64,000 nt of DNA. Origin: a virus. The DNA is taken from positions 1 through 64,000 of the IMG/VR virus record IMGVR_UViG_3300045120_000498. One strand, written 5' to 3'. Both the position numbers and the translations under genes were made by a program. The notes under the pieces were generated by a model that did no database searches, was not told where the DNA came from, and saw only the letters and a program-made list of their open reading frames with translations. Shown in pieces: positions 1,259 to 60,303 of the stretch; within the stretch, counting starts at the first letter, position 1; each line of letters begins with the position of its first letter.

Positions 1259-1746
1259 CAGTCCTTCCACTTCGTGATGACAGCGCAGGCGTCCTTACCG
1301 GCCTGGGTGTACCGGTAGCTCGCCCACCCCTGCTTATCGGTCGCGGGCAGCCGGAACTTGACCGTCCGCTTCTGGGCCGCTCGCAACACGACCGTCTTCT
1401 TCAACTTCAGGGCCTTGCCGCCCTTCTGGAACCACTTCACGGTCGCGAGGATCGTGCCGTCCACGTGCGACGTGTTCTTGAAGATCAGGTCGGCGTACAT
1501 CGTGACCTTGCCGTCGCTCAGGTTGCCGACGGTGTACGAACACGTGTAGCTGATCGTGCCGGTCGGCTTCGCGACCGGAGCCGCGGTGGTCGTCGGAGCC
1601 GCCGTGGTGGCCGGAGCCGCCTTCGCGGTCGTCGCCGGAACGGGCGGCCCGGCCGTGCTGCCTGCGGACGGCGCGGACTTCTCCACACCGCCGCAGCCAG
1701 CCAGCACGACCGCGCCGATCACGGCGCTGATGATCGTGGCCCGCAC
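1258..1746 (-). CDS. Lipoprotein with Pro/Thr/Ala-rich linker
   Basis: GTG start MRATIISAVIGAVVLAGC (lipobox LAGC), APTT-type linker, beta-rich C-terminal domain. Confidence 0.7.
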   Translation of the reverse strand: MRATIISAVIGAVVLAGCGGVEKSAPSAGSTAGPPVPATTAKAAPATTAAPTTTAAPVAKPTGTISYTCSYTVGNLSDGKVTMYADLIFKNTSHVDGTILATVKWFQKGGKALKLKKTVVLRAAQKRTVKFRLPATDKQGWASYRYTQAGKDACAVITKWKD

Positions 1747-1748
1747 GC

Positions 1749-1988
1749 CTAGAACCCCGGCTGCGTCCCGTTGGCGATGTGACCAGCGACCTTCGCGAGC
1801 AGCACGTCCTCGTGCTGCGCGGCGAGCGTGGTCAGGATCGCGGGCGGCGTAGCCACCTCGGCGGCCGTCGGCGCGCCGGTCGTGACGGCGGGGCTGCCGT
1901 CGGGGTTGAGCGGCATCGCGACGGCCGCGGTCGTGCCGGTAACGGCGACGGCCACGCCCACAGCGAGCGCAATCGTGAACTTCCTCAT
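1749..1988 (-). CDS. Small secreted hypothetical protein
   Basis: MRKFTIALAVGVAVAVTGTTAAVA signal peptide; preceded by GGAAAGG SD. Confidence 0.65.
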   Translation of the reverse strand: MRKFTIALAVGVAVAVTGTTAAVAMPLNPDGSPAVTTGAPTAAEVATPPAILTTLAAQHEDVLLAKVAGHIANGTQPGF

Positions 1989-2000
1989 TCGGGGGGACTT

Positions 2001-2050
2001 CCTTTCCGCTGGACTTGACCAGCAACGGGGGGACAGAGCATTGGCGCTCC
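2001..2050 (-). promoter_or_regulatory. Conserved leader (copy 2) + hairpin + GGAAAGG
   Basis: Hairpin GCTGG-tcaagt-CCAGC abutting the SD. Confidence 0.6.
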
Positions 2051-2087
2051 AGAACCGGTCAGGGGGCTGGGGTCCCTGACCGGTTCT
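2051..2087 (-). terminator. 14-bp hairpin, putative intrinsic terminator
   Basis: AGAACCGGTCAGGG...CCCTGACCGGTTCT just downstream of the 2094 stop. Confidence 0.55.
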
Positions 2088-2282
2088 GCAACGTCACGGT
2101 GCTCGGTGCGCGCGGTCGTCCCACGCAATCGGCAGGAACCCGCCGCTCGTGATCCACTTGTGCAGCGCCTCGAATGACTCGGCAAGCTCGACCGCCGTGG
2201 CCGCCTCAGCGCCCTTCGTCGCGATCACTCGCGCACTCGCGTCCAACGCCGTGCGCAGTGCAGCCTCAGGGTCCATCTCCAT

Positions 2283-2360
2283 CCTTCCCGCGGGGCCTTC
2301 CCCGCTGTCGTTGATCAACCGTAGCACACGTTGTGCGCATTGAGCGCACAACGTGTGCGT
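2283..2360 (-). promoter_or_regulatory. Cassette with a doubled, inverted operator
   Basis: Hairpin-GGGAAGG plus perfect 15-bp inverted repeat 2324-2338/2344-2358. Confidence 0.7.
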
Positions 2361-6645: not shown

Positions 6646-9600
6646 TCACTCGTTCTGCGACGCCAGGGCCGAGCCGTTGTACCGCCACACGTCCGCGCCC
6701 CAGCCGGTCGGCGTCAGCACCCGCTCCTCGCCGATGCCCCAGGTCGCCGGAACATCCGTCGCGACCACCTCGCCGACGACAGCACTGCCCCGGTTCTCCA
6801 CGATCCGCACGAAGTAGTTCGTCGCCGTGCTCGGGTCGCGACGACTGATCACGTCACCCGGCTGCAAGTCCCGGAACGCAGGCTTCTCCTGCTCCGGCCA
6901 GTCCGGAATCACGCCGACCCGCTGCACCGCACCCACGCCAGCAGGCGCCTCGGGCGCGGACGGCACGAGCGGCGCCGACGGCGGCTCGTCCGACTCGGCG
7001 TTCCCGTGGTACGTCCACCAGTCCAGGCCCCAAATGCCCGAGTTGATCGAGCGTACGTCGCCAATCTGCCGGTGATCCACGTTCGACGCGATCACCTCCG
7101 TCCGCGTGCGACCCGTCGCGTTGGCTTCCGTCACCCGCATCCAGTACGTCTCGCCGTCCTCCGACCGGCGGATCACGTCACCGACCCGCAACGCCGAGTA
7201 CGCAGGCTTCTCCCGCACCGGCCAGGACGGAAGCACACCGAACGCCTGAGGCGTCCCGAGCGGCCCCGATGCCTCGACCGTCGGCGCCTCGGCCGACCCG
7301 GCCGGTGCGTCCGCCGCGTGCAGTTGTCCGATCTGCGCCGCGCGGTCCCACTCGTCGTAGCTCCACGGCTCGTCGCCGCCCCACTGGCGCGTCTCGGCGT
7401 TCCACCGCTTCAGGTGCAGCATCCGTTCCCCGAACCGGCCCGCCACCTGGAACGTCCGATCCGGATGGCCGTACGGGTCCTCCATCCGCACCATGAACCC
7501 CGTCGTCACGTTCGCGGCCGACGGCACCCAGCCCGGCGCCGTCCCGGGAGCGGCTGGCGCGTCGGGCGCGACGTGCCCGTAGAACTGCCACGCATCGCCG
7601 AAGCCCCCCCAGCCGAGCGGACCGACCGTCCGCTGCTCGCCCACCGGGAACGTGTTGACCACGTTCGACGCGACGATGGTGCCGCGCACCTGCCCGCGCC
7701 CGTCGATGTCCGTGATCTTCACGAAGTGCTTCTCCTGACCGTCCGTACGGCCGATCACGTCGCCCACCTGTAGATCGTCGAAGGCGGGCTTTGGCAGCAC
7801 CGGCCACTCCGGGATCACGCCCTGCGGCTGCATCGCGCCCAGCGTCGGGTCGGCCTCCGGCGGCCGCGCGCGAATCCGGCGCTGGCCGACCAACTGCTGC
7901 CACTCGTCTTCGTACATCAGGAACCCCGACCCCCACCGCATGTTGTCGCCCGGAGCGTTCGCGTCGAATTGCTTCTGCTCGACCGTGATCGACCGGCCCG
8001 ACGACGGCCCAGCCGGATGCGTGTCCGTCACCCGGCCCGTCCACGCCACGTCGCCGTCCGGCGTCGTCATCGTGAACTGGAACCCCGGCGTGATGTTCTC
8101 CATCGACAGCGGCCCCGACGGTGGCGGCTCAGGCGCAGGCGGCGGCTCGGGCGGCGTCGCGGGGCCGTGGTACGTCCACTGGTCAAAGGCGTAGTGGGTC
8201 GCCAGCAACTCGCGCGACTGGCCGACCGGCCGTCCCCGCATATTCGACGCGACCACCGTCCCGTGCACGACCCCGCTCTCCGTCCGGTCGATCTTCAGGT
8301 AGTAGCCGTTGGTTTCGCCGAACCGGAGCACGTCGCCCGGCTGGATGTCCGTGAAGGCGGCCTTCGGCAGCACCGGCCACTCCGGCATCACGCCATCCGG
8401 CTGCACGGCGCCCACCCCGCCCACCGGCACCGGCGCAGGCGGCGGCTCCGGCGGCTCGGGCGGCGGCGGCGGCTCCGCTCGCGGCGGCCGCGGCGGACGA
8501 TCCGGCCGCGGCACGTAGCTCGCATGACCCGGCAGGTACTTCACACCCGACCACGACTGGCCCACCAGCACCTTCTGGCCCAGGTTGAAGTTCGGCCGCT
8601 CCGTCCCCGCCGGACGCCCGTCCGCGTGCGCCAACTGCTCGATCACCGCGATGTCGCCCGAGTCGATCCGCTCACGCAAGTGCGTCGCCTCGTCCGCCGT
8701 GATCCTGCTACTGCGCGCCGCCGAGTCAACGAGTCCCCGCATCGTGGCCTTCTGATTGCTCTGCACCTGGAAGCCCATCGTCGCCCACGTGTACGCGCCG
8801 TTCTTCAACGTCGCGCTGACCGTGATCGCGGTGATCCCGGCGTCCACGTACGCCTTCTCCGTCTTCCGGATGAACCCACCAGCGAAGCCCGTCCCCTGGT
8901 GCGAATCCTGAATCTGGAGGTAGGAGTGATGCACCTTCTGCGCGTCCGGGTAGATCGCCCGCTTGAACTCGCCCACCCGGCTGCCACCCGCGTCGATCAC
9001 CGACCCGCCGACCGCCATGTGATCGCCCCGCACCGTCGTGCTCGTCACCATCGCCCGCAGGTCCGAGCGGCCGAACACGCCCGAGAACGACGACCGTAGC
9101 CACGCCTCCGACTTCAGGTCGTACGTTGGCGCCTCGACCCACGGCGGCAGCACCACGCCGTTCTGCGCGAGCGAGTCAACCGCCCATTCGTACAGCATCG
9201 GATGATCGGTCTGAAGCGTCCGCGCGGCCGCCTCGTTCGTGTAGACCGCCTCGATGGACGCCGCCAGGAACGCCCGCGGCTTCTCGCCCGTCAGGATGCC
9301 CCGCTCGTCGTCCGCCTGCCGCACCAGCGCCGCGGCCGCGCCCTCCGCCATCTGTGTTGCGAAGGACGTGCCGATCTTCTCGCCGAGACGGCGCGTCTCC
9401 GCGGTGTCGGCCCAGTCCACCCGGCCCAACTCGCCCATCGCCTTCGACAGGCCAACCACCGGCTCGACCCGCGTCAGCGGCTCCGGCTTCCACCGCGTCA
9501 CCGCCGACGGCTCGACAAGCACCTCGGCGTTCGATGCCATGTCGCGCACCAGCACCGTCGGCTGCGGAGCGTTCTCGGCCATGCCGATGATCCACCCCTC

Positions 9601-12600
9601 GCCCGATGTCGTGGTGCGCAGGCCCGCGACGGTGCCGCGCTCGTAGCGCACCGGGTCGCCCGCCTTCAGCCCGTTCGGCAGCGTCGTCACGCGCAGGTGC
9701 CGCGGGTCATACGCGGTGTCGTCGCCGACCAGCTTGATCACCGGGAACGCGCCGCGCCAGTCCACCGACTCGACGATCCCGTCGTGCGAGTCCTCGCCAC
9801 TCGTCGTCACCAGGTCGCCCTGCGTGACGATGTGCCCCGACGCGATCCGGCTCGCAACACGCAGCGTGGCCGGATCGAGCATGTGGTGCTCCGCGCCCTG
9901 CCGCAGCTTCACCAGCCCGCCGTCCGGCTCCTCGGCGACCTCCATGAGCGCCTGCGTGCGCAGGTCATCGCGCGACAGCCTCGGGTTCCGCTCGTCGCCG
10001 TACGCCAGCACCATCCCGCCGCCGCCCGGCCGAATCCAGCCACCCGGAATCTCGTTCGGGTCAAGCGGCGGCTGCGGCTCCGGCCGATCCGGCTGTGCGT
10101 GCCCGGGCGCCAGCATCAGGAACTCCGGCCACCGCACAACCTCCGTGCCCGACGGCGACCCGTCCGCGCCCAGGATCACCGCTCGAATCCGCCCGTCCGG
10201 CCGAATGCCGAGCACCTTCATCGGCGACCGCGTGCCCGGCGCCTCGCCCGGCTGCGGACGGGCGCCGATGGCCCTCGTGCTGCGCACGATGCTGCCGACG
10301 TACGCCTCCTCGCCATCCGACAGCGTGGCGATGTTGCCGACCGTCGGCACCCACTCGGACAGGTCGCTCGGCCGCCACGGATGCCCCGTGTGGTCGATCA
10401 CCGCCCACTCGCCCGCCGTCGCCGTCGGCGCGAACCCCGCCACCACGACCGGCGCCCCCGAAGGCGTCACGTACCGGCGGCCCGCCATCACCTCGACATC
10501 GCCCGCGCCGCTCAGGCTCCGCGGCCGGAACGCCAGCGACTCCGCCGCCACCAGCCGCGATGTCGGCGCGACCGGCACCCCCGCGTCGCCCGCGCCCACC
10601 CGAAGCTCGCGATGCGTCGGCTCGCCGCGCGTCCCCTCGCCGGTCTGCGTCAGGATCGTGATGCCATCGCCCGCCGCGGTGTCCCAGACGATCCCCTCCA
10701 CGTCTCCCACCCGGACGCGCTCGCCCGCCTTCCACTCGCGGCCGCGCCACAACACCGACCCGCCCTTCGCGGTCAGCGGCGGCAGCGCCCGCTCCGGCGT
10801 CACGCCGCGCACGTACTCGCCCGGGATCGCGATGCCCAGCGTGCCGTACGTGTCGCGCTCGACCGTGCCCAGCTTCACCTCGCCGTTGTGGAGCACCGCC
10901 ACCTGCGTGCCCTCCACCGGCCGGATCGCCTCGTGCTGCACGATCCCGAACTCGGAGTCTGGCGCCAGCCCATCGAACGACCCGTCGTCCAGCCATTGGA
11001 TCGTGTAGCCCGCCCGGTTGCGGCCCGCCGAGTCCTGCCGGTACGTCGCCGTGATCCGGCCCAGCCGGTCGCCCACCGTGACCACCGAACCGATCCGCAA
11101 CTGATCGCGGCTGCGGTACGGATCGGCGCCCTCCGGGAACCGCTCCGGCGCCAGCCCAGCACCGATGGGCACCAGTTCCGTCGCCTTGTAGAGCCGCTGC
11201 GTGCCGTCCGGCGACTCGCCGTACCACTCCACCGACTGACCGACCCCGGACGTGCCGATCAGCCGCACCACGTTGCCCGCCCGGTCGGTCACGACCTGAC
11301 CCTGCTCCAGCGGCGTCGGGTGCGGATCGAGCTTCAGCACCGCCTGGAAGTTCGGCGGCGTCCGGTTCCCGTCGCTCGCGGAGCCGTACAGCCGCGTCGA
11401 GGACTCGCGGCCGCTCGGGATCGTCCCGCCGTTGGCGTCCCGCATCAGTTGGTTCAGCCGCTCCAGCCGCGACTCGCCCGGGTAGCCGTAGCGGAGCCGC
11501 ATCAGCAACGCCTGCCGCTCGCCCTGCGGCACCTTCGCGTCGTCCATGATCGTCCGCATCCCCTGCCGGAACCCGCGGTACGACCCCAGCACGCGCTCGT
11601 TCGACGGGTTCTCCTGCGCCCACTCCAGCACATCGTGGTAGCCGTGCTCGCCGAGCCAGTCGCGCGCCGTGACGTGCGCCAGTTCCTCGACGACGGCTTC
11701 CTCCAGGCCGACCCCGCCGTACGTGTTGATCGGGTCGCGATCCTGGTTCACCGAGTGCAGCAACTCGTGCGCCATCACCTTGTAGGAGGCGTACAGGTCG
11801 GCCTTCTCTTGGTTCGTCAGGTGCTCGTTGTTGTTGCGACGCTCGATGCCGCGCTGAAGCGCCGGAAGCACCGCCGAGCCGAGCCGGATGTAGCCCCGCA
11901 ACTGGTGCAGGCCCGAGAACCCCTCATACCCGGTGCCGCGCCGGGTGCCGGTCGAGAAGATCACCTCGCTGATTTCCGACTGCTTGCCCTCCGGCACACC
12001 GTTCGCGCGCGACAACTCCAGCGCCAGCGCCGTCAGGTCACCCGCGTACTCCGCCTGATTCTGCGGCACCCGCCCACGCACCCGCTCGCGCCGCAACGCC
12101 ACCGACCCGCCCGGCAGCTTGAACGCGCGCGAGTCGGTCAGCATGTACCGCGGCCCGAGCGGCGTCGGCCGCTTCGCGAAGTCCACGATGATCGACGCGC
12201 CCGTCTCCGCCGACTTGTAGCTACGCGACAGCACTTCCTCGCCGTCCGGCGTCGTGCGACGCCGCGCGTTCCGGGTCGTCGGCTTCATCCGCAGACCCTT
12301 CAGCACCGCCTCGACCTCAGTGCTCGTGGCCTCCATCATCGTCGCCGTCCGGCCCCGGCCGATCTTCAGCGGGTTGCGCTTCGCGTCCGTCGCCGCCGTC
12401 AGCGCCTCGCGGATCGCCTCCGTCCGCTGATCGGTCGCGTTGTTCCACGCCTCCGCCTCCGCGATCCGCACCCGCTCCTGCGCGTCGGCGGCCTCAGCGT
12501 CGGTCAGGATGTCGTGCGGCCCGGCGCCCGGGATGCCGACCTCGACCACCTTGTCGTTCATCGGCCCGTCGCGACCGACCCGGAACCGCATCGGCGTGCC

Positions 12601-27519: not shown

Positions 27520-27613
27520 CTAGCGGCCCTGACTGCCCGCCCCACGGCATGGGGCGGGCATGGTCGGGAGGTGCGTAGGAACGTGTTGCGAGGATACCCG
27601 GTTTGCGCCCGGG

Positions 27614-46855: not shown

Positions 46856-47469
46856 CACAGGCCCGCCTCCTTTTCGTCCCGCGTGAGCACCGCATCCAGT
46901 GCTCGCAACACGCGCTTCAGGCCGCCCTTCAGCGCCGCGTCGCGCCACAGGCCGACGCCGCCGAGCACCGTCTTCAGGCTCGCCTGCACCGCCCGCATCT
47001 CCTCGTGCAGCCGGTCGGCGCGCGGATTCGGGATGTACCGCTCGGTCGGGCCGAACGCCTCGTCGATGGCCTCCATGTCCTCGTCGTCCGGCCGCACCAG
47101 CGGCCCGCGCGCGTCCTCGCGCAGGCGAGCCTCGTCCAACTGCCGCCGCAAGGCCGACAACTCGTCGTCCACGCCCAACTCCGGCCGGTTGTTCAGCAGG
47201 TGCAGCAGCGTCGCCTGCGCCTCGACCAGGTTCAGCGCCGCCTCCAGCGCCATCTCGCCCGCCGTGTACCGATCCGTCGCCACGTGCAGGTCGCGCGACA
47301 ACTGCGCGATGCGATCAGCGGCGTCTTCGGCTAGCCCTGCCCCAATCGGATCGCCTTCCTGCACCCAACTCCACGCTGCATCGCGAAGCTCCTTCTGGAT
47401 GCCGTCGTCGCTCACGCGCACGGCCTCAACCGGCACGTCCAGATTCTCGTCCACAGGCCCCTGAGCCAT
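46855..47469 (-). CDS. Hypothetical coiled-coil protein
   Basis: Starts after a hairpin-SD element at 47477-47501. Confidence 0.55.
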   Translation of the reverse strand: MAQGPVDENLDVPVEAVRVSDDGIQKELRDAAWSWVQEGDPIGAGLAEDAADRIAQLSRDLHVATDRYTAGEMALEAALNLVEAQATLLHLLNNRPELGVDDELSALRRQLDEARLREDARGPLVRPDDEDMEAIDEAFGPTERYIPNPRADRLHEEMRAVQASLKTVLGGVGLWRDAALKGGLKRVLRALDAVLTRDEKEAGL

Positions 47470-50283: not shown

Positions 50284-51808
50284 CCGCAACCCTCGTGGCC
50301 GCTATTTGCGGGATCGGCTGTCACCTGCTACGCACAACGTGCGCTACAGGCGGCCGTACTCGTGGATCGTGTCCCACGCCAGGTACAGCGTCACCACGAA
50401 CGCGCCCAGCGCCCACACCTCCAGCAGCCGATCAAGCGAATGCGGATACGTCAGGCTCGACGCCCACACCGCCAGCGACGACAGCACCAGCGTGATCACG
50501 GCCGCGGCAACCACCCGCCGCCGTGCATACCGGTGCTCATGGATCACCCAGCGCCGCCTTGATCAGTTCCGCCTCCGCATCGAACGACGCCGCCTCGGCC
50601 GCGTCCGTCGCCCATTCCTGCTTCGCCGCGTAGATCGAGTTCACGATCCCCTGCCACGTCTCCCGCGTCGCCGTGATCGCCACCTCGTCCGTCGAGAGCG
50701 GCGGCACGCCGTCGCCGCTCGACCACTGGTACTTGCGCTCGAACACCGACTCCAGGCACGGGTAATACTCGCCCTGCGTCCCGCAGATCACCCAGTAGCC
50801 GACGGTCGCCGTCGCCTCGCCGGTGTCCGTCGGGATCACCAGTACCGTCTCCGGCTCCATCCCCGGCGCCGTCGAACGGTTCACCACGCGGCCGCCGCAC
50901 CACTCGGCGATGGCCTCCCAGTCGGCGTCGTCCGTCAACTGCACGGCCTCCACCTCAGCAGGCTTCGTCACGTAGCGATCCATCGTTCCTCCCGGTGTGT
51001 TGCGAGGCGGAGCCTGGTACGTCGCAGCCTCGGCCGCGGCCCCTCCGGCAGGGAGGCTCGCCCCGCAGTGCCGGAAACCTCAGCGGCGCGCCATCAACTC
51101 GGCCATCGCGGCGTTCCGCGCCAGCGCGTACTTGTCGAACTCGACCTGAATCGCCGCGTGCGTGTCGCGGATGCCCTCGGCCAGCCGGTCGCGCAGACCG
51201 ACCAGCTTCTCGTGCCGCTGACGCTCCAGCGTGGACTTGCCCAGCGTCCGCCAGCCGTCCGTGCCGTGCAGCAGCAGGTCAACCGACTCCAGTTCCGCGG
51301 CCGCCTCGCGCGCGACCGCGAGCAGGTCGGTGATCGCGCCGAGCATGTCCTTCGTGAAGTCCACCCGCTCCTCGGGCATCGTGCCCTCGACGACGCTCAC
51401 GGCGCGTCTCCCTGCTCGTCTCCCGCATCGGGATCGACCGGAGCCACCGGCTCGGCCTCGTCCGAGCGTGGCGTCAGCGAGGCGTACACGTCCCGTCCGT
51501 GCGCGTTCACCTCCAGCACCATGCCCGTCGGCACCTCAGCCGCCGAATCGAGGAAGTCAGCGAACCGCTCCGCCCGGCTCGGATCACGGAACGACCGCAC
51601 CCGCGCCGTCCGCCCCGGCTGAAGCGTCAACGCCCGCACGATGGCCGCAGCCGACCGGCTGTCCGTCGTGCTCGCACCCTGATCGCGCCACTCGAACGAC
51701 GGCGGCAGGTTCTCGATGTCAGCCACCCCGGACCGGTCGCGCGCACGCGGGCGCCGACCACTTCCCGGAGCGGGCGCCTCGGCAGCGCCTCGTCTCGCCA
51801 TACGTGTT

Positions 51809-51849: not shown

Positions 51850-53162
51850 CTAGCTGATCCTCCACACGTGCACGACCGTCCCCGACCACGGATCGGTCGT
51901 CGTGCCAATGTACGCCGCCGTGGGATCGGCCGTGACGAACTCGTCCGGCAGAAGCTCGCCGGTCGTCACGATCCGCAGCAGCACCGCCACGTCCGGTCGG
52001 TCCACCGGCACCAGCGCCCACGCCATCAGCCGCATCTTCCCCTCGACCGGCTGGAAGCCCACGTCCAGGAACCGCGCCGGAGCAGGCGCAATCACCTTCG
52101 CGACCAGCGCCCCGCCGTCCGGCGTGTCGTTCGCGTAGTCCGCGTCCGGGCCGGTCAGTTCGTACTTCCAGATCGCCAGCGTCACGCGCTCACCCCGCAG
52201 CGCCGGGCGGCGCCTCGTCCAACTCGCCCATGATGTCGGACTCGTCCATCTCGCCCGACCCCAGATCGGACGGCGCAGGCTCGATCACCCGCGCGATCAG
52301 GCCCATGAACTCCATCCCGTGCGGCGCCGCCAGCGGATCGGTGACGGTGATGATCGTCTTGCCCTTGCCCGTCTCGATGATCTGCGGACCGGCCGCCGCG
52401 AAGCCGACCACGATCCGCTCGACCTGATTCGTGCCGTCGGAGTAGACCGCCGTCATCGCGATGCACGGCGCGAAGATGAACGTCATCGCTCCCTCCCCTG
52501 CTCGGTTGCACGAGCGACCATACCAGCGGCGTTCGCGCGCGGCGGATGCGAGTCAAGCAGCGGCCGCGGCAACGCCCCGACGATCATGCTCGTGCACACC
52601 CGGCCCGGCTTCGCGCCGCACACCGGGCACGTCACCGTCAGCGCCAACGCCCGCCGTGCTCGCGACGCGCCCACGCTCACTCGACCGCCAGGATCGCGCG
52701 CGCGGCCCGGCCACGCTCCGCGTCCGCCTCCAACTCGCGGCACTCATCCGCCAGCCGCAGCACCAGCGCCGCCAGGTCGTCCAGCCGGTCAGCCAGGGTG
52801 CTCGCAACACGATCCCCGTTCGACCGCACCTGCGGCCGCGCGACCTGCCCAGTGCGCGTCAACGAGTAGTACCGCTGCGCGATGGTCAGCGGCTTCACGC
52901 CGGTCGCAATCGCCACCCGGTTGATCGCCGCTTTCGGTCCCAGCCCATCGTTGATCAGGTCGGCCACCCGCTGCGCCGTCAGCAGCGTCGATTCGTTCGC
53001 GCTCACGACGACACGCTCCGCAGCGCCACCAGCGTGAACACGGTCGCCATCACGACCACGCTCGCCATCCACCCCGGCTTCACGCCCAGGCCGCGATAGA
53101 CCAGCCCGACGCCCGCGCCCAGCGCCAGCGCGACGGCCACCTCGACCACGCCCACCGCCACG

Positions 53163-53675
53163 TCACGCATCGACAACCGCCCCCGCTCCGCACGCGAACG
53201 CCGTCACCGCGACGACCTCCTTGTCGTCCCACTTGCGGCCCGCCAGCGTCAACGCCAACTCGCCCGCCAGCGCCAGCGCCGCGTTCTTCAGGCAGCCCTT
53301 CAACCGGCGGCCCGGCATCGTCCCCGGATTCGCCCACCAGTCGGCGAACTTCCGCCGCGTGTAGGTCGCCTTCGCCTGCGCGTTCACGAGCAGCTTGCGC
53401 GCGCCGCACTGGCACGCCTCGATGCGCGTCCCGCGCGCTCGCGCGATCCCGCTCGCGACCTGGTACTGCACCCGCCGCGCGTTCGCGGCCAGCAGCACGT
53501 CCACGTAGTTGCCGCCGCACACCGTCACGCGCGCCCGGTGCGTGAACGGATGCAGGAAGCAGAGTCGGTTCTGCTCGACCGACCGTTGCAGCGCCGTGCT
53601 CGCGTGCGCGGTGCCCGCCATCGGCACCGCCAGTGTTGCGAGAGCGAGCGTCATCGTCACCACTCGGCGTGTCAC
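53163..53675 (-). CDS. Secreted/membrane hypothetical protein
   Basis: MTRRVVTMTLALATLAVPMAGTAHA signal peptide; GTG start overlaps the stop of a 9-codon upstream ORF. Confidence 0.6.
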   Translation of the reverse strand: MTRRVVTMTLALATLAVPMAGTAHASTALQRSVEQNRLCFLHPFTHRARVTVCGGNYVDVLLAANARRVQYQVASGIARARGTRIEACQCGARKLLVNAQAKATYTRRKFADWWANPGTMPGRRLKGCLKNAALALAGELALTLAGRKWDDKEVVAVTAFACGAGAVVDA

Positions 53676-53710: not shown

Positions 53711-53773
53711 CCTCTCCGCGGGAACCGCTCCCCGCCTTGCACACCCGCTCAGGCTAGCACACGTTGTGCGTAG
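53711..53773 (-). promoter_or_regulatory. Expression cassette variant
   Basis: Palindrome, TAGCCT, hairpin GCGGG...CCCGC, GGAGAGG. Confidence 0.7.
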
Positions 53774-53785: not shown

Positions 53786-56521
53786 TTAGTGCGACACCCG
53801 CGTCGGCCACGACCACGTGCCCAGCGGTGCCTCCGCAGCCTCCACGTGCGACGCCTCGACGCCCTCCTTCCAGAGCACGTCGTTGCCGTCCAGGAACACC
53901 TGAAGGTTCTCCGTCGGATCGGCCACCCGTACCACCATCGCAGCGAACACGTCGCCCGGCGCCACCCGCGCGCCCACGTGCAACTGCTCGCCGGTCGCCA
54001 GGTCCCCCCGGCCCATCGTCGCCCGCCGCCGGTTCACCGCCTGCGCGTCGCCGTCCGTCAGCTTGTAGTGCACGATCCGGCCCAGCGACGGACCCAGCGA
54101 CGGCGCCATCACTGCACCCCGAACAGCGCAGGCCCCAGGAACAGCAGCCAGTAGACCGCGAGCGCCAGCACGACCAGCCCGAAGAACGCCACCCGTTCGA
54201 TCACGCGGGCACCCACCGCCCGTCCGTGATGAAGCCGTGGTCGCCGCACGAGTTGCACAGCAGGCTCGGCGTGAAGGTCGGCGGGTCGAGCGACACCACG
54301 TCCCACGTCGCCGCGTACGGGTCGATCCTGCGTTGCGCGTCCGTCGGGAACGTGATCGCGCCGAAGCACTCCGCGCCGGTCGGCGTCAGGTGCCGCACCG
54401 TCGCGCCGTACCACGGCTCGTCCGCCACGTCCGCGTACTGCGGATTCAGCTTGCGGTCCGGCCGCCACGACGACCACCGCATCGCGTGATCATGGCCCAG
54501 GTCGAGCCACCCGCTGTCACCGCCGTCCGCCACCCTCCGATCATGTCATTTGCCGGTGCCCAACTGCAACCGTCCGCCGTCTCGCAACACAGGGATCAGC
54601 GTCTCCCCGACGGTCGTGCCGTCCGGCGCCTCGATGAAGCTCAGGAACACGTCCTCGAACCGCACCAGCCCGAACTCGGCCGCCTTCAGCGTCGCCTCCA
54701 GGTAGTGCGCGATCCCACGCCATGCCTGCCGGTCGCGCTGCTCGGGCGAGAACCGCCAGCCGGTGCCGCGCGACAGCCGCTCCGGCGCCAGCGGGTTCAC
54801 CCGAATCCGCACCACCATCTTCACCAGTTCGCCGTCCGACTCGCGCAGGATCGGCCACACGAACCGGCAGAACAGCGCCCGCGGCTCCTCCCACGTCTCG
54901 TCGAACGAGACGCCCAGCGCGCCCGCCTGCTGGAGCCGCTTCCGAATCTGGCCCTGCGACCGCTCGATGGACACCGCCGTGTCCTCGTAGGGCGACTGCA
55001 CCGGACTCATCCCGCCTCCCTCCGGCGGCGGCGCTCGTCGTACCAGCGGTGCCCCTTCAGCGTCGCGATCCACACGATGGCCTCCGACCCCGTGTCCGTC
55101 AGGCGCGTCCGCTCAGAGTTCATCACCAGGCCGTCCCTCACCAGGTCGTTCTTCCGCGTCCGGTGCGCGTTCGTCTTGATCCCCGGGATCAACTCCATCT
55201 CGTTCTGCGTGTAGCCCTGGTGGCCGCTCTCCACAATCGCCCGCAGCAGCAGCCCAGCCTGCGCCTCCCAGCCCGGCAGACGACGCGCCGCCGCGGCGCG
55301 CTCCGTCGGCTGCGGATTGCGACGCATCGTGCCGGTGCTGCCGGGCCGCAACTGCGCCGCCTCGGCGTCCAGGCCGTCCGCGATCCGCACCATCATCTCC
55401 GCGATGTCGGGGTGGAAGATGCACCGCAGCGCACCCTCGCGTAGCTCATCGGCATAGCTCATCGGGCCGCCGCCCTCCTCTCGGTCAAAGCTCGTAGAAC
55501 ACGATCATCACGGCCCAGACGATTGTGGCTACCGCGCAGGCGAACACGAACGCCTCGGCCGGGTCAAGGCCCGTGTCCAGCCACTTCCGCCAGTAGTCGC
55601 GAAGCGTCACGTCTCCAGCCCCGGCTCGATCCGGTCCAGCACCTCCACCAGCCGGAACCGGCGAAGCTCGATGTGGTTCGGCGCCATCGCCGCCATCTGC
55701 TGCGCCGCCTCCCGGTACTGCTCCACCCGCCGCCGGTCGGCACCGATCAGCGGCATCGGCCCGAGCGCCGTCATCGTCGCCAGGATGCCCTCGTTGTCGT
55801 CGTTCGGGTCAAGCATCACCCACGCGAACACCTCCGTGATTCGGTCGCCGCGGCGCGTGCCGCCGTCCCCGTCGCCGTAGCTACGGACGTTCATGCCTGC
55901 CTCGCAGGGGTGTTGATCTGGAACAGGCCGCGATCCTGCGACGGCTCGCGCACCGCGAACACCCGCACGTGGTTCATGAACATCTGCCGCACCGGGAACC
56001 CGGCCGACACCTCGTCCGTGTAGACCTGGAGCCGCGTCACCGTCCAGCGCCCGCCGTGCCGGTCGGTCACCGTGTCGCCCGGCTCCACGTGCACGATCCG
56101 GCCGTAGCCGCCGGACGGGATCGACCGGTCGCACCACGGCGCCTCGAACGGCAGCCCGTCGTAGATCAGGAACTCGCCCGGCTCGCGGTGCGTCCACGTC
56201 TCCGACAGGCCACCCATCCGCTGGCGTGCTCGCGCCGCCGCGCGGAGCCGCCACCTGCCCCACCAGGACAGCCAGTCCGGATGGATCGGGTCACCCCGCG
56301 GCACGATCCGCCCCCTCATCGAAGAAGTCCAGGCCCCGGCCCATCGTGCCGCGCAGGTCGATCCACCCGACGTACGTCTCGCCGTCTCGCAACACGACCA
56401 GGTTCCCGAGTTCGTTGCCCATCACCACGTCGCCCGGCCGCAGCCGCTCATCGGCCAGCACCTCGACCAACTCCCCGATGGTGAGCGGCTGGAACGGCAC
56501 GCTGGCAGGCCAGTCGGTCAC
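53786..56521 (-). other. Hypothetical CDSs: 53786-54112, 54201-54533 (DUF6527-like PSLLC..CGDHGFITDGRW), 54546-55010, 55007-55462 (HTH-like), 55607-55894 approx., 55891-56319, 56291-56521
   Basis: Packed ORFs with plausible composition; family hints from motifs only. Confidence 0.55.
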
Positions 56522-57204: not shown

Positions 57205-58299
57205 TCAGCCCTTCCCGGGCATCCCAACGAACCCCAGGTCCTTGCCGTTCGCGCGGAAGATCGCGCGCAGGTGCATGATCAGGTCAGCCATCGCCGTCGC
57301 GTCGTCCGCGTAGCCGTGCATCACCAGCCCGCCCCGCTTCTCGTCTTGCAGGAACACGATGCACTGCACGTCCTCGCCGTTCTCCGGCTGCGCGACCAGC
57401 GCCTCGATCATCGCGTCGCACAGCCGCGTCAGCCGATCCACCGGCTCGGATGTCCGGGTCGGTCGTTCCTCAGCCATCAGATTTCTCCCATCTCCCGGCC
57501 ATGCTCCCGGATCAGCCCCGCCAGCGGGTGCCCCTCGGCCAGCAGCGCCTCGACCAGCGCGTCATACCGCGCGACCGCCTCCGGCGACTTCCGCACGTCC
57601 CGCATCTCGCCGGTCGTCGCGACCTCCTCGGACTTCAGGCGCCGCTGCACATGCACCGCCGTGCCGCTGCCCGGCAGCACCCACTCGCCTGCCCGGTGAT
57701 CGCCCACGCCACGCAGCATGTGCCGCGCCATCGCCTCGCTCGACACGCTCGACTTGCCGATGGCGCTCGCGTGCCAAACTGGCCCGCCCAGGTCGCGCTC
57801 GATTCACTCATAGCCCGCGTTCACCGTCAGCACGTGCGTCCCCGAACCGCTCACCCACCCGAACCGCGGATGGATCGTCTCGGCCGCCAGCAGGCAGAAG
57901 TTCCCGAGCGCCCTGATCTGCTCCGGCGTCATCGCCGCACCGTCGTTTCAGTTCCGTTCGAGCCGTCATTTCGGTTCCGCACGTCGCGGCCGCACCCGAA
58001 CCCGACCACGAACGCGGACGACGCGCTCACCCTCGGAACTCCAGGGCGCGGTAGGCGTGATCGAGCACGACCACCTTCTGCCAGCGCGGCTGTGCCCCCT
58101 CAACCTGCTTGATCAGCGCGCGGAGCGCCGCCTCCAGCACGGCCTCGCGGGCGGTAGGCGACTGGCCCGGGACGAGCAGCGGCACTTCGATCATCTCGAC
58201 GGGGCACCATCCTTCGTCGTCCTCGTGGTCGCCCGTCAGGTCGTAGCCCGAGACGTGACGGCAGTAGGGGCACCACCAGGCGGTAGGCGACTCAGCCAT
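57205..58299 (-). other. Hypothetical CDSs 57205-57477, 57477-57746, 58027-58299
   Basis: Minus-strand ORFs; the last has a PTAWWCPYC motif. Confidence 0.5.
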
Positions 58300-58838
58300 C
58301 ACGCCGTCGCCCGCCACTCGCTCGCCCACAGGAAGTCGATTGAGCAGATCATCGCGCACTCCGCGTCCTCCACCCGGTCGCCGACCATCAGCGCCAGGTG
58401 CGGCGGATAGAACTCGCGGTGGATCGGCGCCATGATCAGCCCCGCCTCGATCAGCAGGCCCGGCGCAGGCTTCCGGCACCAGCATCGCGCGTACTCGGGA
58501 TCAGCCGCGTCCGGGTGATGCGCGCAGACCATCATCCGGTCGAACAGGCGCTCGGCCTGCCGCTGCGTCTCCACCATCGCCAGCATCACGTCCGCCAGCG
58601 TCACCAGGCCGAGCGCGACGCCGCCCTGATTCGACACGCCCACGATCCGACCGCCGCGATCCTTCCACCGGCGCATCAGCACCACGGCCTCCGGGAACAC
58701 GCGCACGTCCTCGGGGCCGTTCACGAACCGGCCCAGCGGGTCGTCCTTGCCCTCCCGCACCGTGCCGTCGATGTCGAGGTACAGCACCGGCGTCGCCTTC
58801 CCGTGCGGGGAATCCGCATGAGCTTGGATCGTGCTCAC
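58299..58838 (-). CDS. HAD-IIIA phosphatase (GmhB/HisB-like)
   Basis: YLDIDGTV, VSNQGG, CWCRKPAPGL, MVGDRVED. Confidence 0.85.
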   Translation of the reverse strand: MSTIQAHADSPHGKATPVLYLDIDGTVREGKDDPLGRFVNGPEDVRVFPEAVVLMRRWKDRGGRIVGVSNQGGVALGLVTLADVMLAMVETQRQAERLFDRMMVCAHHPDAADPEYARCWCRKPAPGLLIEAGLIMAPIHREFYPPHLALMVGDRVEDAECAMICSIDFLWASEWRATA

Positions 58839-59074
58839 TCAGCCACCACGCAGCCGCTCTGCGTCCGACGGCGACAGCAGCCCCTCGCGATCCGCTCGCA
58901 ACACCGCCAGCGCCGACCACAGGCACGCCGCATCCTCCACCGCGGACATCGCCATCACCTGCGCTCGACCCTCCTGCGTCTCCGCCGCGTTCGCCATCGT
59001 CGAGTACGTGTTCCACGACGACCGCTCACCGCGAAACCACGCCCGCGCCTCGTCCACCCGCACCTGGATGTCGG

Positions 59075-59272
59075 TCACGTGAACACCCCGTCGTTCGCCT
59101 GCCCGACGAACCGCCGGACTTCCTCCAGCACCCACTCGCCGCGCCCAGCCGCGATCAGGTCGTTCGGCGACTCGCCTCCGAAGCGGCGGTTCTTGCCGCG
59201 CATGAACTGCTCCACGCCCTCGGCCGTGTAGACCTCCGACAGCATCAGCCGAACCTGCTCCGTCTCGGTCAT
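59075..59272 (-). CDS. MbcA/ParS/Xre antitoxin C-terminal-like domain protein
   Basis: VYTAEGVEQFMRGKNRRFGGESPNDLIAAGRGEWVLEEV pattern; ATGA-coupled to the RHH gene. Confidence 0.65.
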   Translation of the reverse strand: MTETEQVRLMLSEVYTAEGVEQFMRGKNRRFGGESPNDLIAAGRGEWVLEEVRRFVGQANDGVFT

Positions 59273-59544
59273 CCCGTCCACCCGCAGTACCCGCATCTCT
59301 GGCCCTTCCGGTGCCGCTGCTGATTCCGGCACTGCATCGTCCCGGCCGTGTTGCGAGACGGCACCACGCTCACCGCCGCGCCGCTCGTGCTCGTCACCTG
59401 GTAGCCCGGCCCGGCCAGCACGTTCTCGACGCACCCGCGGATGAACTCCGACATGCCAACGCCGCGCTGCTCCGCAGCCTCCCGCCACCGGTCGCGATCC
59501 GCTTCCGCCAGCCGTAGCCGCACCGTCGTGTCACTTGTAGCCAC
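59269..59544 (-). CDS. Ribbon-helix-helix DNA-binding protein
   Basis: TTVRLRLAEADRDRWREAAEQRGVGMSEFIRGCV: beta-helix-helix RHH pattern. Confidence 0.75.
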   Translation of the reverse strand: MATSDTTVRLRLAEADRDRWREAAEQRGVGMSEFIRGCVENVLAGPGYQVTSTSGAAVSVVPSRNTAGTMQCRNQQRHRKGQRCGYCGWTG

Positions 59545-59576
59545 AACGGCGATCCTAGCACCAGTTGTAGCTACAC
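59535..59576 (-). promoter_or_regulatory. Paired palindromic operators flanking a -10 (TAGGAT) of the RHH gene
   Basis: TTGTAGCCACAA (59535-59546) and TTGTAGCTACAC (59565-59576), 30 bp apart. Confidence 0.6.
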
Positions 59577-59669
59577 GTCACGAGCGGGGCCATCGCCACA
59601 GCAGCAGCGCAGCGATCACGAGGAACCCGACGATCAGTTCCACGGCAAGCACGATGTCCGCGACATCCA

Positions 59670-60303
59670 CTAGCGGCCGCGCTGGCGCTGCAACGCCGCG
59701 ATCCGGCGCTGCTCGAACTCGTCCAACTCCCTCGGCAGCACGTCCGACCCGGCCGGGTTCACCGCGATCCCCAACGCCTCCAGGATCGGCAGCGCGTCCG
59801 CCGGGTCAGCCATCCCCTCCCAGTACGCCGCGTACACCGCGTACGCGACCGACAGCCACGTCTCCCGCGACGCCGCGACGGTGATCTGCTCGCCGCTCAT
59901 CGGCCGTTCACCAGCCGACTCAGCGTCTCCACCAGCAGGTCGCGCTCCGTGCACACGTGCCCGATGCCCCGCACCAGCGTGCGCGTCGGCAGCGCAGGCA
60001 CCATCGGCGGGATCGTCGGCGCCTGCCACTCGACCGGCACGTCCACGGCCGCGCCGCAGTCGGGGCACTCGACCGTCATGTCCAGTCTTCCAGGTGCCAG
60101 TCGTCCGGCGGCTCGGGCACCACGACTCGCAACACGCAGTCGTCGCGCAGCCGCAGTTCCATCTGGCCCAGCACCACCTCGTCGTTCTCGGTGACCGGCA
60201 GCAGCATCACGCCGTGCCGCATCGCCAGGCCCATGACCACGCCGCAGTAGAGCGCGTGCCGGGTGCGCCGCTCGGCCTGCTCGGCGGTCAGCAGGTCGGT
60301 CAT
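59670..60303 (-). other. Small hypothetical CDSs 59670-59900, 59897-60079 approx., 60076-60303
   Basis: Overlapping start/stop codons. Confidence 0.5.

What the first reader, a model, noticed from the sequence alone, without database searches (positions are those of the whole stretch)
1381..60135. Cryptic 10-mer CTCGCAACAC written into coding sequence about 29 times, in all frames and on both strands
Seen: 29 exact TCGCAACAC copies (26 as CTCGCAACAC), roughly one per 2 kb, nearly all inside genes. A rough independent-base estimate gives fewer than 1 expected. It is not a peptide motif: it encodes V-L-R (GTG TTG CGA), V-A-S/T (GTT GCG), C-C-E (TGT TGC GAG), A-R-N-T, S-Q-H and L/F-A-T (GCA ACA), repeatedly through codons that are rare at about 70% GC, while other VLR peptides use CTG CGG. 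The motif is non-palindromic and unrelated to the promoter palindrome. The 21:8 strand ratio may only reflect base skew. Inference: a selected genome-wide binding or processing site (stoperator-like, Chi/KOPS-like, nucleoid, packaging or self-recognition tag) for an unidentified factor.
Basis: partly seen in the sequence, partly recalled or inferred. Interest (0 to 1): 0.85.

Follow-up and report, generated by a model that had tools for sequence, protein, structure and literature searches.

The report
Phage-private 10-letter DNA tag in genes
An uncultured soil phage has written one exact 10-base word (CTCGCAACAC) about fifty times into its own genes, on both strands and in every reading frame. 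Its relatives and likely hosts lack the word, so it is almost certainly a selected recognition tag for a DNA-handling factor that is still unknown.

Summary
The window holds 30 TCGCAACAC and 27 CTCGCAACAC. The whole 127.5-kb, 70% GC IMG/VR phage record holds 53 and 47. About 0.3 are expected, and it is the commonest 10-mer of the genome. A shuffle of synonymous codons gives 1.2 copies (maximum 5) against 37 in the called genes. Twenty of the 27 Val-Leu-Arg tripeptides are spelt GTG TTG CGA.

Comparison with orthologues shows that the sites arose by synonymous and mild amino-acid substitutions, not by insertion. The strand bias (37:16) is what base skew predicts. One-mismatch copies are rare (14).

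A near-identical relative keeps all 7 sites it covers. Relatives at 50-69% terminase identity have 0-1 copies in over 590 kb. None of 401 sampled Actinomycetota genomes, nor 109 kb of host-like contigs, is enriched. Independent soil runs hold the phage, so this is not an assembly artefact.

Best reading: a lineage-private DNA tag of the "more is better" kind for a very sequence-specific DNA-processing factor, working by Chi-like or nick-site-like logic.

One unrelated phage carries the same 10-mer at the end of a CRISPR-like repeat and of a promoter leader. This may be coincidence.

First-stage readers of this scan noted the same word in other windows of this genome. The scan also found a different decamer shared between hosts and phages in Saprospiraceae.

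The parts
1380..1389 (+). 10-mer copy; sense strand of the minus-strand ORF reads GTG TTG CGA (VLR)
9354..9362 (-). 9-mer copy only (T before it); in the 4149-aa ORF, sense strand TTC GCA ACA CAG (FATQ)
9851..9860 (+). 10-mer copy; 4149-aa ORF, CGT GTT GCG AGC (RVAS)
14079..14088 (+). 10-mer copy; 4149-aa ORF, VLR
16272..16281 (+). 10-mer copy; 4149-aa ORF, VLR
18888..18897 (+). 10-mer copy; 4149-aa ORF, VLR
20326..20335 (+). 10-mer copy; 647-aa gene, VLR; the G002 orthologue has ATG CTG CGA GAG (MLRE)
22859..22867 (+). 9-mer copy only; gene 22782-23153, CGT GTT GCG AAC (RVAN)
23522..23531 (-). 10-mer copy; ORF 23164-24036, GCT CGC AAC ACG (ARNT)
24282..24291 (+). 10-mer copy; ORF 24167-24760, GGT GTT GCG AGC (GVAS)
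27583..27592 (-). 10-mer copy; probably intergenic, just upstream of the SNF2 helicase start (27550)
30387..30396 (-). 10-mer copy in the GMC oxidoreductase gene, GCT CGC AAC ACA (ARNT). Cellular homologues already carry GCN CGC AAC ACC here, so this site was nearly pre-formed.
31928..31937 (+). 10-mer copy; ORF 31769-32176, GTG TGT TGC GAG (VCCE)
32338..32347 (+). 10-mer copy; ORF 32324-32737, VLR
37644..37652 (+). 9-mer copy only; terminase large subunit, CGT GTT GCG ACG (RVAT); the G002 orthologue has CGC ATC GCT CGG (RIAR)
37921..37930 (-). 10-mer copy; terminase, TCG CAA CAC (SQH); the G002 orthologue has TCC GAG CAC (SEH)
38588..38597 (+). 10-mer copy; ORF 38499-39038, VLR
39509..39518 (+). 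10-mer copy; gene 39039-39551, VLR
42931..42940 (+). 10-mer copy; N6/N4 DNA methylase gene, VLR; three orthologues keep V-L-R but spell it GTG/GTC CTG/CTC CGC
43090..43099 (+). 10-mer copy; DNA methylase gene, VLR; orthologues have LLR, ALR or RLR with CTG/TTG CGG/CGC
46902..46911 (+). 10-mer copy; gene 46855-47493, VLR
50997..51006 (-). 10-mer copy; ORF 50537-51079, CCT CGC AAC ACA (PRNT)
52801..52810 (+). 10-mer copy; ORF 52677-53162, CGT GTT GCG AGC (RVAS)
53633..53642 (-). 10-mer copy; gene 53163-53744, CTC GCA ACA CTG (LATL)
54581..54590 (+). 10-mer copy; gene 54546-55073, VLR
56386..56395 (+). 10-mer copy; ORF 56291-56614, VLR (the frame call is ambiguous with an overlapping ORF)
58895..58904 (+). 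10-mer copy; ORF 58839-59369, VLR
59348..59357 (-). 10-mer copy; ORF 59269-59577, TCT CGC AAC ACG (SRNT)
60126..60135 (+). 10-mer copy; gene 60076-60303, VLR
63318..63327 (-).

Best explanation
CTCGCAACAC (GTGTTGCGAG on the other strand) is a positively selected recognition word at the DNA level, private to this phage lineage. It was written into pre-existing genes by point substitutions wherever that was cheap. Most were synonymous changes to rare codons, such as CTG to TTG and CGC to CGA. Some were mild amino-acid changes. This pattern shows that every extra copy is useful ('the more the better'). It must also accept the word in either orientation, which points to duplex DNA, or either single strand, rather than mRNA. 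The most likely mechanism is inferred, not shown. In this reading the word tags phage DNA for a DNA-end or DNA-strand processing activity. It could act as a private Chi-like signal that stops or redirects a helicase-nuclease or exonuclease and hands DNA to recombination. It could instead be the target of a site-specific nickase, like the nick consensus words of T5, phiKMV and tf phages. The phage has its own DNA-end toolkit (Ku, a PD-(D/E)XK exonuclease with RecT, RusA, an SNF2 helicase). The component that reads the word is unidentified and may be one of the many orphan genes or a host-strain factor.
For: Shown:
- Enrichment: 47 exact 10-mers against about 0.3 expected; commonest 10-mer of the genome.
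- Synonymous-codon shuffle: mean 1.2, maximum 5, against 37 observed. Twenty of 27 VLR tripeptides are spelt GTG TTG CGA, against 0.4% expected.
- Sites align to ordinary residues of orthologues, so they are substitutions and not insertions. Several cost an amino-acid change: E to Q, R to T, S to R, and I, M or C to V.
- The definition is sharp: 47 exact, 14 at one mismatch, 82 at two.
- No flank conservation.
- Both orientations are each far above chance (33 and 14 against about 0.15 each). Their ratio equals that of the near-cognate background, and there is no polarity switch along the genome.
- Spacing is somewhat more even than random: CV 0.77 against 0.98, P = 0.026, and no two sites are closer than 159 bp.
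- Density is the same in conserved genes (0.37 per kb) and lineage-unique genes (0.44 per kb).
- The word is kept at 7 of 7 sites in a relative about 5% diverged.
- It is absent (0-1 copies) from five whole related phage records and four further contigs at 50-69% TerL identity. None of these has an analogous word.
- It is at chance level in 401 sampled Actinomycetota genomes and in 109 kb of contigs carrying the closest cellular homologues of the phage's GMC oxidoreductase gene.
- Ku, PD-(D/E)XK nuclease, RecT and RusA are present.

From the literature: phage tf carries 14 copies of a sharply defined 9-mer (11 of them exact) that are nick sites (PMC3517423). RecBCD degrades DNA lacking Chi, and some phages load themselves with Chi (PMC3784561).
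Against: - No reader was found. The unique proteins tested have no informative Pfam or PHROG match.
- The Ku and the recombination genes are shared with relatives that lack the word.
- Known nick words lie on one strand only (PMC3517423). Known Chi words are 5-8 nt long, polar and frequent in the host. Here 30% of copies are on the other strand, and the word has 10 fixed bases.
- The conservation test in the close relative is not significant on its own (7 of 7 kept, against a 0.71 background per 10-mer; P about 0.1).
- The host is unknown. A host-encoded reader or a host genome rich in the word cannot be excluded.
Confidence: 0.4

Rival explanations
1. Architectural or regulatory binding sites, like stoperators. 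A phage-encoded DNA-binding protein, for example a monomeric repressor or a nucleoid or coating protein, binds the asymmetric 10-bp word at about 50 places. It would silence, organise or protect the genome.
For: Cluster A mycobacteriophages carry sets of 13-bp asymmetric stoperators across the genome. Their motifs differ between clades and co-vary with the repressor (PMC6550527, PMC9283540). Lineage restriction of the word fits a co-evolving reader. 75% of copies have GTGTTGCGAG on the sense strand. Small wHTH genes exist at 21535-21933 and 38786-39124.
Against: The orientation ratio is no greater than composition predicts, and the minority orientation is itself about 100-fold enriched. At least 49 of 53 sites are inside genes rather than in short intergenic gaps or at promoters. 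Exactness (47 exact against 14 one-off) is unusual for operator sets. Near-saturation of VLR codons argues for 'more is better' rather than for placed sites. The wHTH gene at 21535 has a G002 orthologue, and an AbiEi_4-like gene homologous to 38786 is present in L001 and L171, although G002 and L171 lack the word. No integrase or repressor was recognised.
Confidence: 0.2
2. A host self-recognition word mirrored by the phage. The host chromosome would be saturated with the same decamer, as with a DNA-uptake-sequence-like or other self tag, and the phage has adopted it.
For: The anatomy matches DUS and USS: 9-12-mer, sharp core, both strands, all frames, about one per 1-2 kb (PMC3630211, PMC2397512). 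Earlier notes of this scan describe a decamer (TACTGAGGGG) shared by Saprospiraceae genomes and their phages (not checked here). An unrelated phage, G416, carries the same 10-mer at high density, which could point to a common host factor.
Against: The maximum is 20 copies per genome, equal to the control word, in 401 Actinomycetota drawn evenly across the phylum. There are no copies outside one homologous codon position in 109 kb of contigs with the closest cellular GMC homologues. Relatives of the phage have no word of their own. No inverted pairs lie closer than 268 bp.
Confidence: 0.15
3. Packaging or encapsidation signal. The word would be a dispersed pac-like or condensation site that lets the terminase or an internal protein recognise phage DNA anywhere along the concatemer.
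For: 'More is better', orientation independence and mild even spacing all fit. The word is private to the lineage. A small wHTH gene lies just upstream of the terminase gene.
Against: Known pac and cos sites are single and complex. The terminase and the wHTH gene are conserved in relatives without the word. No clustering near the terminase genes.
Confidence: 0.08
4. Mimicry of a CRISPR repeat end. The word equals the last 10 nt of a 36-nt CRISPR-like repeat found on two other soil phage contigs. Sprinkling it through the genome would interfere with a host CRISPR system that uses such repeats, for example through tag-based self recognition or decoy integration sites.
For: The repeats of G416 and G417 both end in GTGTTGCGAG, directly before each spacer. 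In G416 the last 15 nt are invariant while the rest of the repeat varies. RNA anti-CRISPRs built from repeat mimics are known, but this is from my own knowledge and was not checked here.
Against: Only 10 nt are shared. The best match of any G000 site to a full repeat is 24 of 36. The arrays lack Cas1, give no Rfam CRISPR-DR hit, and their spacers match nothing held here. In G416 the dispersed copies are a 15-mer just downstream of TATAAT boxes, which is a different anatomy. Searching 2.9 million contigs for one 10-mer is expected to find some unrelated repeat family by chance. The same 10-mer also sits in 22-bp iteron-like repeats of an unrelated MAG. Protection of protospacers by a flanking tag would cover only a tiny part of the genome.
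Confidence: 0.06
5. No function. The word would be a by-product of a mutational or repair bias, of a repeated protein or mobile element, or of assembly.
For: Very-short-patch-type repair can over-represent short words (my own knowledge). One site (30387) was nearly pre-formed in the donor gene.
Against: All frames and both strands are used, and there are no shared flanks. Sites arose by two or more coordinated substitutions, including amino-acid changes. Relatives with the same GC content and codon usage have none. Independent assemblies hold it. No known repair system has 10-bp specificity.
Confidence: 0.04

Closest known systems
Localized nick consensus words of phages (T5; phiKMV group 5'-CGACNNNNNCCTACTCCGG; P. 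putida phage tf 5'-TACTRTGMC, 14 sites in 46 kb) - PMC3517423
   Same: A short, non-palindromic, sharply defined word, private to a phage group, is repeated about once per 3 kb along the genome. Very few one-mismatch variants occur. The function is still enigmatic.
   Different: Known nick words lie on one strand only (14:0 in tf). Here the ratio is 37:16. Physical nicks could not be tested. There are many more copies here (53).
Chi sites (RecBCD/AddAB) and their enrichment in recombinase-less lambdoid phages - PMC3784561
   Same: A G/T-rich word inside genes that works by 'more is better' and marks DNA as self for a destructive helicase-nuclease. Phages can be loaded with it.
   Different: Chi is 5-8 nt long, polar, read by a host enzyme and frequent in the host (about 0.2 per kb, observed/expected about 2.3). 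Here the word has 10 fixed bases, observed/expected is above 100, no polarity exceeds composition, it was not found enriched in any genome searched, and the phage has its own RecT system.
DNA uptake sequences (Neisseriaceae DUS 10-12-mer; Pasteurellaceae USS 9-mer core) - PMC3630211, PMC2397512, PMC2346458
   Same: Length, sharp core, both strands, all reading frames, a density near one per 1-2 kb, and lineage-specific 'dialects'.
   Different: DUS and USS saturate a competent bacterium's chromosome and are read by its uptake machinery. Here the word is seen only in one phage lineage. There are no terminator-like inverted pairs.
Stoperators of Cluster A mycobacteriophages - PMC6550527, PMC9283540
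   Same: An asymmetric site dispersed through a phage genome in tens of copies, with a motif that is specific to the clade.
   Different: Stoperators are 13 bp, degenerate, predominantly in one orientation relative to transcription, and include the operator of the early promoter with a known repressor. Here the word is an exact 10-mer, lies inside genes, both orientations are selected, it is not at promoters, and no repressor is known.

Membership tests
Chi (crossover hotspot instigator) | Frequent and over-represented in the host chromosome whose RecBCD/AddAB reads it | tested here: not met
   At most 20 copies per genome, equal to the control word, in 401 sampled Actinomycetota. 0 copies outside one homologous codon in 109 kb of host-like contigs. 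The host itself is unknown.
Chi (crossover hotspot instigator) | Polar: orientation biased relative to replication or the DNA end beyond base composition | tested here: not met
   The exact-site ratio is 2.36, against 1.8-2.6 for words at 2-3 mismatches. Both orientations are spread evenly along the genome.
Chi (crossover hotspot instigator) | Attenuates a helicase-nuclease and loads a recombinase | not testable with these tools
   Needs biochemistry. The phage does encode a PD-(D/E)XK nuclease, RecT and Ku.
DNA uptake sequence (DUS/USS) | Sharp 9-12-nt core on both strands, inside genes in all frames, about one per 1-2 kb | tested here: met
DNA uptake sequence (DUS/USS) | Saturates the chromosome of a naturally competent host lineage | tested here: not met
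   Not found enriched in the genomes searched. This is a sample, not proof of absence.
DNA uptake sequence (DUS/USS) | Frequent close inverted pairs acting as terminators | tested here: not met
   The closest opposite-strand pair is 268 bp apart (37644/37921).
Stoperator (Cluster A actinophage) | Tens of asymmetric sites with a clade-specific motif | tested here: met
   53 sites. Absent from relatives.
Stoperator (Cluster A actinophage) | Predominantly one orientation relative to transcription | tested here: inconclusive
   75% co-oriented (40:13), but this equals the compositional expectation, and the minority orientation is itself strongly enriched.
Stoperator (Cluster A actinophage) | Cognate immunity repressor, with the same site acting as operator at the early promoter | tested here: not met
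   The word is not part of the promoter palindrome cassette. No repressor or integrase was recognised.
Localized nick consensus (T5, phiKMV, tf) | Short exact non-palindromic word repeated along the genome and private to the phage group | tested here: met
   comparison with PMC3517423.
Localized nick consensus (T5, phiKMV, tf) | All sites on one strand | tested here: not met
   37 on + and 16 on -.
Localized nick consensus (T5, phiKMV, tf) | Physical single-strand interruptions at the word in virion DNA | not testable with these tools
   Only assembled contigs of the runs could be laid. Raw long reads are needed.
CRISPR repeat mimic (solitary repeat unit / RNA anti-CRISPR) | Similarity over the whole repeat, including its structure, in an intergenic transcribed position | tested here: not met
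   Only the terminal 10 nt are shared. The best match is 24 of 36, and the sites lie inside genes.
KOPS/SRS (FtsK/SpoIIIE guide words) | Strong strand polarity pointing to a terminus | tested here: not met
   No polarity beyond composition and no switch point.

The most novel reading that the evidence does not exclude
The word is a phage-private self/non-self tag. A nuclease or helicase-nuclease active during infection, encoded by the phage or commandeered by it, destroys DNA that lacks the word (the host chromosome and competing phages). It is stopped, or converted to a recombination or repair mode, at CTCGCAACAC. This would be a Chi-like logic invented by a virus for its own genome. A still bolder variant links the word to the invariant end of a CRISPR-like repeat carried by other soil phages (G416, G417).
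Probability: 0.2. Interest if true: 0.9.

Novelty: new variant of a known kind. Interest (0 to 1): 0.74.

Why it matters
Dispersed recognition words such as Chi, uptake sequences, KOPS, stoperators and phage nick sites are among the few cases where selection acts on DNA as text across a whole genome. Each has revealed a DNA-handling machine. Here a virus has pushed the principle very far: an exact 10-mer, more than 100-fold enriched, taking over three quarters of all Val-Leu-Arg codon triplets and even changing amino acids. Yet its closest relatives and likely hosts lack the word. That combination implies a strong, recently evolved and very specific DNA-protein (or DNA-RNA) recognition system that no annotation explains. 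It could also yield a new 10-bp-specific DNA-binding or DNA-cutting activity. The word is also a practical marker for tracking this phage lineage in soil metagenomes.

Tried and rejected
- **Host-abundance.** The 10-mer was counted in 5 named actinobacterial genomes and in 401 evenly drawn Actinomycetota. That sample includes 15 unpublished genomes, used only as counts. All were at control level. The five highest (G321 and others) were dispersed chance hits, not arrays.
- **Two-copy scan of genome contigs**. One MAG (G006) has 37 copies, but these are 22-bp iteron-like repeats.
- **GMC oxidoreductase as a host pointer.** Its homologues point to Nocardioides-type hosts. None of the 401 sampled genomes holds a close homologue, so the donor lineage was tested only through metagenome contigs.
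- **Actinophage markers.** WhiB and Lsr2 were not found in the phage. ParB_N was not found in G000 either.
- **Search for a reader.** Pfam or PHROG scans of about 45 proteins gave nothing lineage-specific with a DNA-reading domain. No protein is shared between G000 and G416 or G417, apart from a short generic methylase segment and SSB.
- **Other carriers in IMG/VR.** Three further scans for other phages with the dispersed word, checked, found only local repeats plus G416 and G417. A 14-mer scan gave only chance singletons and G416.
- **CRISPR checks.** There was no Cas1, no Rfam CRISPR-DR family and no spacer match.
- **Conservation.** Only 7 sites could be compared with a close relative.
- **Read laying** listed only 40 of about 1,030 differences and used contigs, so it gives no test of site conservation, nicks or ends.
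- **Other.** No tRNA in the window. No match in cultured phages at DNA level. Only about 25-30% protein identity for terminase and capsid.
- **Not used.** Complex prediction, structure prediction and the protein atlas were not used, because there was no candidate pair to test.

Full report
**What is there.** The window is the first half of a single 127,514-bp IMG/VR virus record. It is 70% GC, and CheckV estimates it 88% complete. Nearly all genes lie on the minus strand.
- TCGCAACAC occurs 30 times in the window and CTCGCAACAC 27 times.
- In the whole record the numbers are 53 and 47 (33 on +, 14 on -).

**Is it more than chance?** Yes.
- Dinucleotide shuffles expect 0.85 and 0.26 copies in the window.
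- Markov models of order 1-4 expect 0.2-0.45 copies of the 10-mer in the genome.
- It is the single commonest 10-mer of a 70% GC genome, ahead of GGCGGCGGCG.
It gives a mean of 1.2 and a maximum of 5, against 37 copies in the called genes.
- The word is sharply bounded. All ten positions are essentially invariant, only 14 one-mismatch copies exist against 47 exact ones, and nothing is conserved in the 25 bases on either side.

**How the copies sit in genes.**
- At least 49 of the 53 copies lie inside frames with the GC3 signature of genes. About half read GTG TTG CGA (Val-Leu-Arg). Others read xGT GTT GCG Axx, TGT TGC GAG (Cys-Cys-Glu), xCT CGC AAC ACx, TCG CAA CAC or xTC GCA ACA Cxx.
- Of the 27 Val-Leu-Arg tripeptides in the called proteome, 20 are spelt GTG TTG CGA. 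Codon usage predicts 0.4% (TTG is 12% of Leu codons and CGA is 5% of Arg codons, and both figures are inflated by the word itself).
- Reliable alignments to orthologues in related phages show that the word replaces ordinary codons. It is not an insertion. In the methylase gene, three relatives keep V-L-R but spell it GTG/GTC CTG/CTC CGC. At 126057, S-Q-H is TCA CAG CAC in the relative and TCG CAA CAC here.
- Elsewhere the word cost an amino-acid change: E to Q and R to T in the terminase, S to R at 63318, and I, M or C to V at three sites.
- The site in the GMC oxidoreductase gene was nearly pre-formed, because cellular homologues already carry GCN CGC AAC ACC at that position.
- Density is the same in genes shared with relatives (0.37 per kb) and in lineage-unique genes (0.44 per kb).

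**Orientation and spacing.**
- The ratio of + to - copies is 2.36. Words at 2-3 mismatches show 1.9-2.6, so the bias is what base skew and coding constraints give.
- The three copies in the small plus-strand gene block (69-71.4 kb) flip with the genes.
- Both orientations are individually about 100-fold enriched, and both are spread evenly over the four quarters of the genome.
- Spacing is mildly more regular than random (CV 0.77 against 0.98, P = 0.026). No two copies are closer than 159 bp, and the largest gap is 8 kb.

**Not an artefact.** Soil metagenome runs listed under different sample and study codes hold the phage. One has identical contigs, and three carry a variant about 4% diverged. 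A JGI contig (L001, 13.3 kb, 90-96% identical) keeps all seven sites it covers. With 71% of random 10-mers unchanged, that is P of about 0.1, so it is suggestive only.

**Who else has it?** Relatives exist in numbers, because the terminase has hundreds of metagenomic homologues. There is a gap between 97% and 69% identity.
- Five whole related records (88-135 kb, 54-67% TerL identity) hold 0, 0, 0, 1 and 0 copies.
- Four contigs at 65-69% identity hold none, and 26 loci of the wider family hold 0-2.
- In three relatives read in full, the only enriched words belong to Shine-Dalgarno and promoter cassettes. Nothing is comparable to this word.

Hosts were tested as follows.
- The phage's GMC oxidoreductase is 70-82% identical to genes of Nocardioides, Nocardioidaceae and Ilumatobacteraceae. 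One terminase homologue sits in a Nocardioidaceae MAG.
- In 109 kb of metagenome contigs carrying the closest GMC homologues, the word occurs only at the homologous R-N-T codons.
- Among 401 Actinomycetota genomes drawn evenly across the phylum, the maximum is 20 copies per genome, no more than the reversed control word. The sample includes 15 unpublished genomes, used only as counts.
- The 401-genome sample did not contain the GMC donor lineage.

So "not found in those searched" is the correct wording.

**A lead from IMG/VR.** Scans for two copies at set distances found one unrelated phage, G416 (61 kb, 61% GC). It shares no protein with this phage. In G416, GTGTTGCGAG ends a 36-nt repeat that alternates with unique spacers of 36-39 nt in more than 40 units. 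The 15-mer GAAGTGTGTTGCGAG also stands 8-9 nt downstream of TATAAT-like boxes at about 25 intergenic places. A second phage contig, G417, has a 36-nt repeat that starts with CTCGCAAC and ends with GTGTTGCGAG.
- Neither has Cas1. There is no Rfam CRISPR-DR hit, and the spacers match nothing held here.
- In G000 only the 10 bases are shared; the best match to a full repeat is 24 of 36.
- The anatomy differs: intergenic and promoter-linked in G416, intragenic in G000.
- Searching 2.9 million contigs for one 10-mer is expected to meet some unrelated repeat family. The same word also occurs in 22-bp iteron-like repeats of an unrelated MAG.

I therefore treat this as a lead, with perhaps one chance in five that the link is real. 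It is not evidence.

**What it most likely is.** The facts require selection, or an equally directional process, acting on DNA text. The reading is orientation-independent, has 10-bp exactness, and gains from every additional copy. It is also specific to this lineage.
- That excludes a peptide motif, a mobile element, a promoter and an mRNA signal.
- It argues against polar systems such as KOPS, classical Chi and stoperators.
- It argues against a host-mirrored word, as far as hosts could be sampled.

The remaining class is a tag for a DNA-processing or DNA-binding factor. The closest known anatomy is the nick consensus of phage tf: 14 copies of a 9-mer in 46 kb, 11 of them exact, and only three one-off variants (PMC3517423). 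Those words lie on one strand only. The closest known logic is Chi as a self-mark against a destructive helicase-nuclease, which some phages accumulate (PMC3784561). Chi, however, is shorter, polar and frequent in the host. The G/T-rich strand of the word (8 of 10 bases) resembles Chi words; that point rests on my own knowledge.

The phage has Ku, a PD-(D/E)XK exonuclease with RecT, RusA, SSB, an SNF2 helicase and a DNA methylase. All have homologues in relatives that lack the word, so none is an obvious reader. The methylase is notably more diverged from G002 than its neighbours (41% against 66-68% identity) and itself carries two copies. About half of the genes are lineage-specific orphans.

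I therefore commit to a lineage-private, "more is better" DNA-processing tag with Chi-like or nick-site-like logic, at 0.4. The rivals and their weights are listed separately.

**Novelty.** I found no description of a phage-private exact 10-mer embedded in coding sequence on both strands at this enrichment. Known actinophage repeats are intergenic, oriented and degenerate (PMC7302621). It is a new variant of the known kind "dispersed genomic recognition words". It would be categorically new if the self/non-self reading holds.

**Note on earlier findings of this scan.** First readers of two overlapping windows of this genome noted the same decamer. Elsewhere the scan reported a different decamer shared by Saprospiraceae genomes and their phages, which I did not check. 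That report raised my weight on the host-mirrored rival.

Noticed in passing
G416 = IMGVR_UViG_3300033153_010600 (loci L263-L266); arrays at 25.75-25.96, 39.0-40.6 and 42.3-43.9 kb: A real phage (portal, helicase) carries more than 40 units of a 36-nt repeat with unique 36-39-nt spacers. It has no Cas1. The repeats are polymorphic except for an invariant 3' 15-mer, GAAGTGTGTTGCGAG. The same 15-mer sits 8-9 nt downstream of TATAAT-like boxes at about 25 intergenic sites, some as divergent pairs. A ParB-like gene and a D12 methylase flank the mini-array. It could be a CRISPR-like array without an adaptation module, or an operator and centromere system.
   Followed up: partly
G417 = IMGVR_UViG_3300033166_000008 (L267-L268), 20.05-20.35 kb: Mini-array of 4-5 copies of a 36-nt repeat whose two ends are inverted repeats (CTCGCAAC ... 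GTTGCGAG) around an inner hairpin. It lies beside a 431-aa orphan gene, between the tail genes and the early genes.
   Followed up: partly
window 29357-31060 (-): The phage carries a GMC-family FAD oxidoreductase that is 70-82% identical to cellular genes of Nocardioides, Nocardioidaceae and Ilumatobacteraceae. This is an auxiliary metabolic gene and the best pointer to the host.
   Followed up: partly
G000 68130-68969, 85119-86672, 86674-87930, 80191-81177 (beyond the window; loci L173, L174): A Ku homologue, a PD-(D/E)XK exonuclease next to RecT, and a RusA-domain protein. Together they form a full DNA-end and recombination toolkit. Ku recalls the Ku-encoding mycobacteriophages Omega and Corndog (my own knowledge).
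   Followed up: no
window 6646-19095 (-): A 4149-aa open frame with no Pfam family at E<0.001. Relatives match only parts of it (39% identity over 1048 aa in G002). It carries five copies of the word.
   Followed up: no
window 41885-43393 (-): The N6/N4 DNA methylase is far more diverged from the G002 orthologue (41% identity) than the neighbouring terminase and helicase (66-68%). It carries two copies of the word 159 bp apart, the closest pair in the genome.
   Followed up: partly
whole G000: Codon usage is dominated by G-ending codons (GTG 64%, GCG 69%, ACG 73%, TCG 56%). This gives a strong G over C skew on the coding strand (GC skew about -0.15 on +).
   Followed up: no
G000 127,400-127,514 (right contig end): The record ends in long poly-G and poly-C runs. 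This is probably low-quality assembly at the contig end and not a biological terminus.
   Followed up: no
G006 (MAG labelled uncultured Bacteroides sp., about 57% GC; loci L057, L100, L119): Several contigs carry 22-bp iteron-like tandem units of the form AACGTGTTGCGAGCGYGCTYCC. There are 37 copies of the 10-mer in 2.5 Mb, against 1 for the control word.
   Followed up: partly
window, many intergenic sites (e.g. words CGCGGAAAGG and GATACACACG): The second and third most enriched words of the genome belong to the Shine-Dalgarno hairpin cassette and the promoter palindrome noted by other first readers. Relatives have their own versions (CCGACCAAGGAGG; CTCTCTGCGGGG).
   Followed up: no
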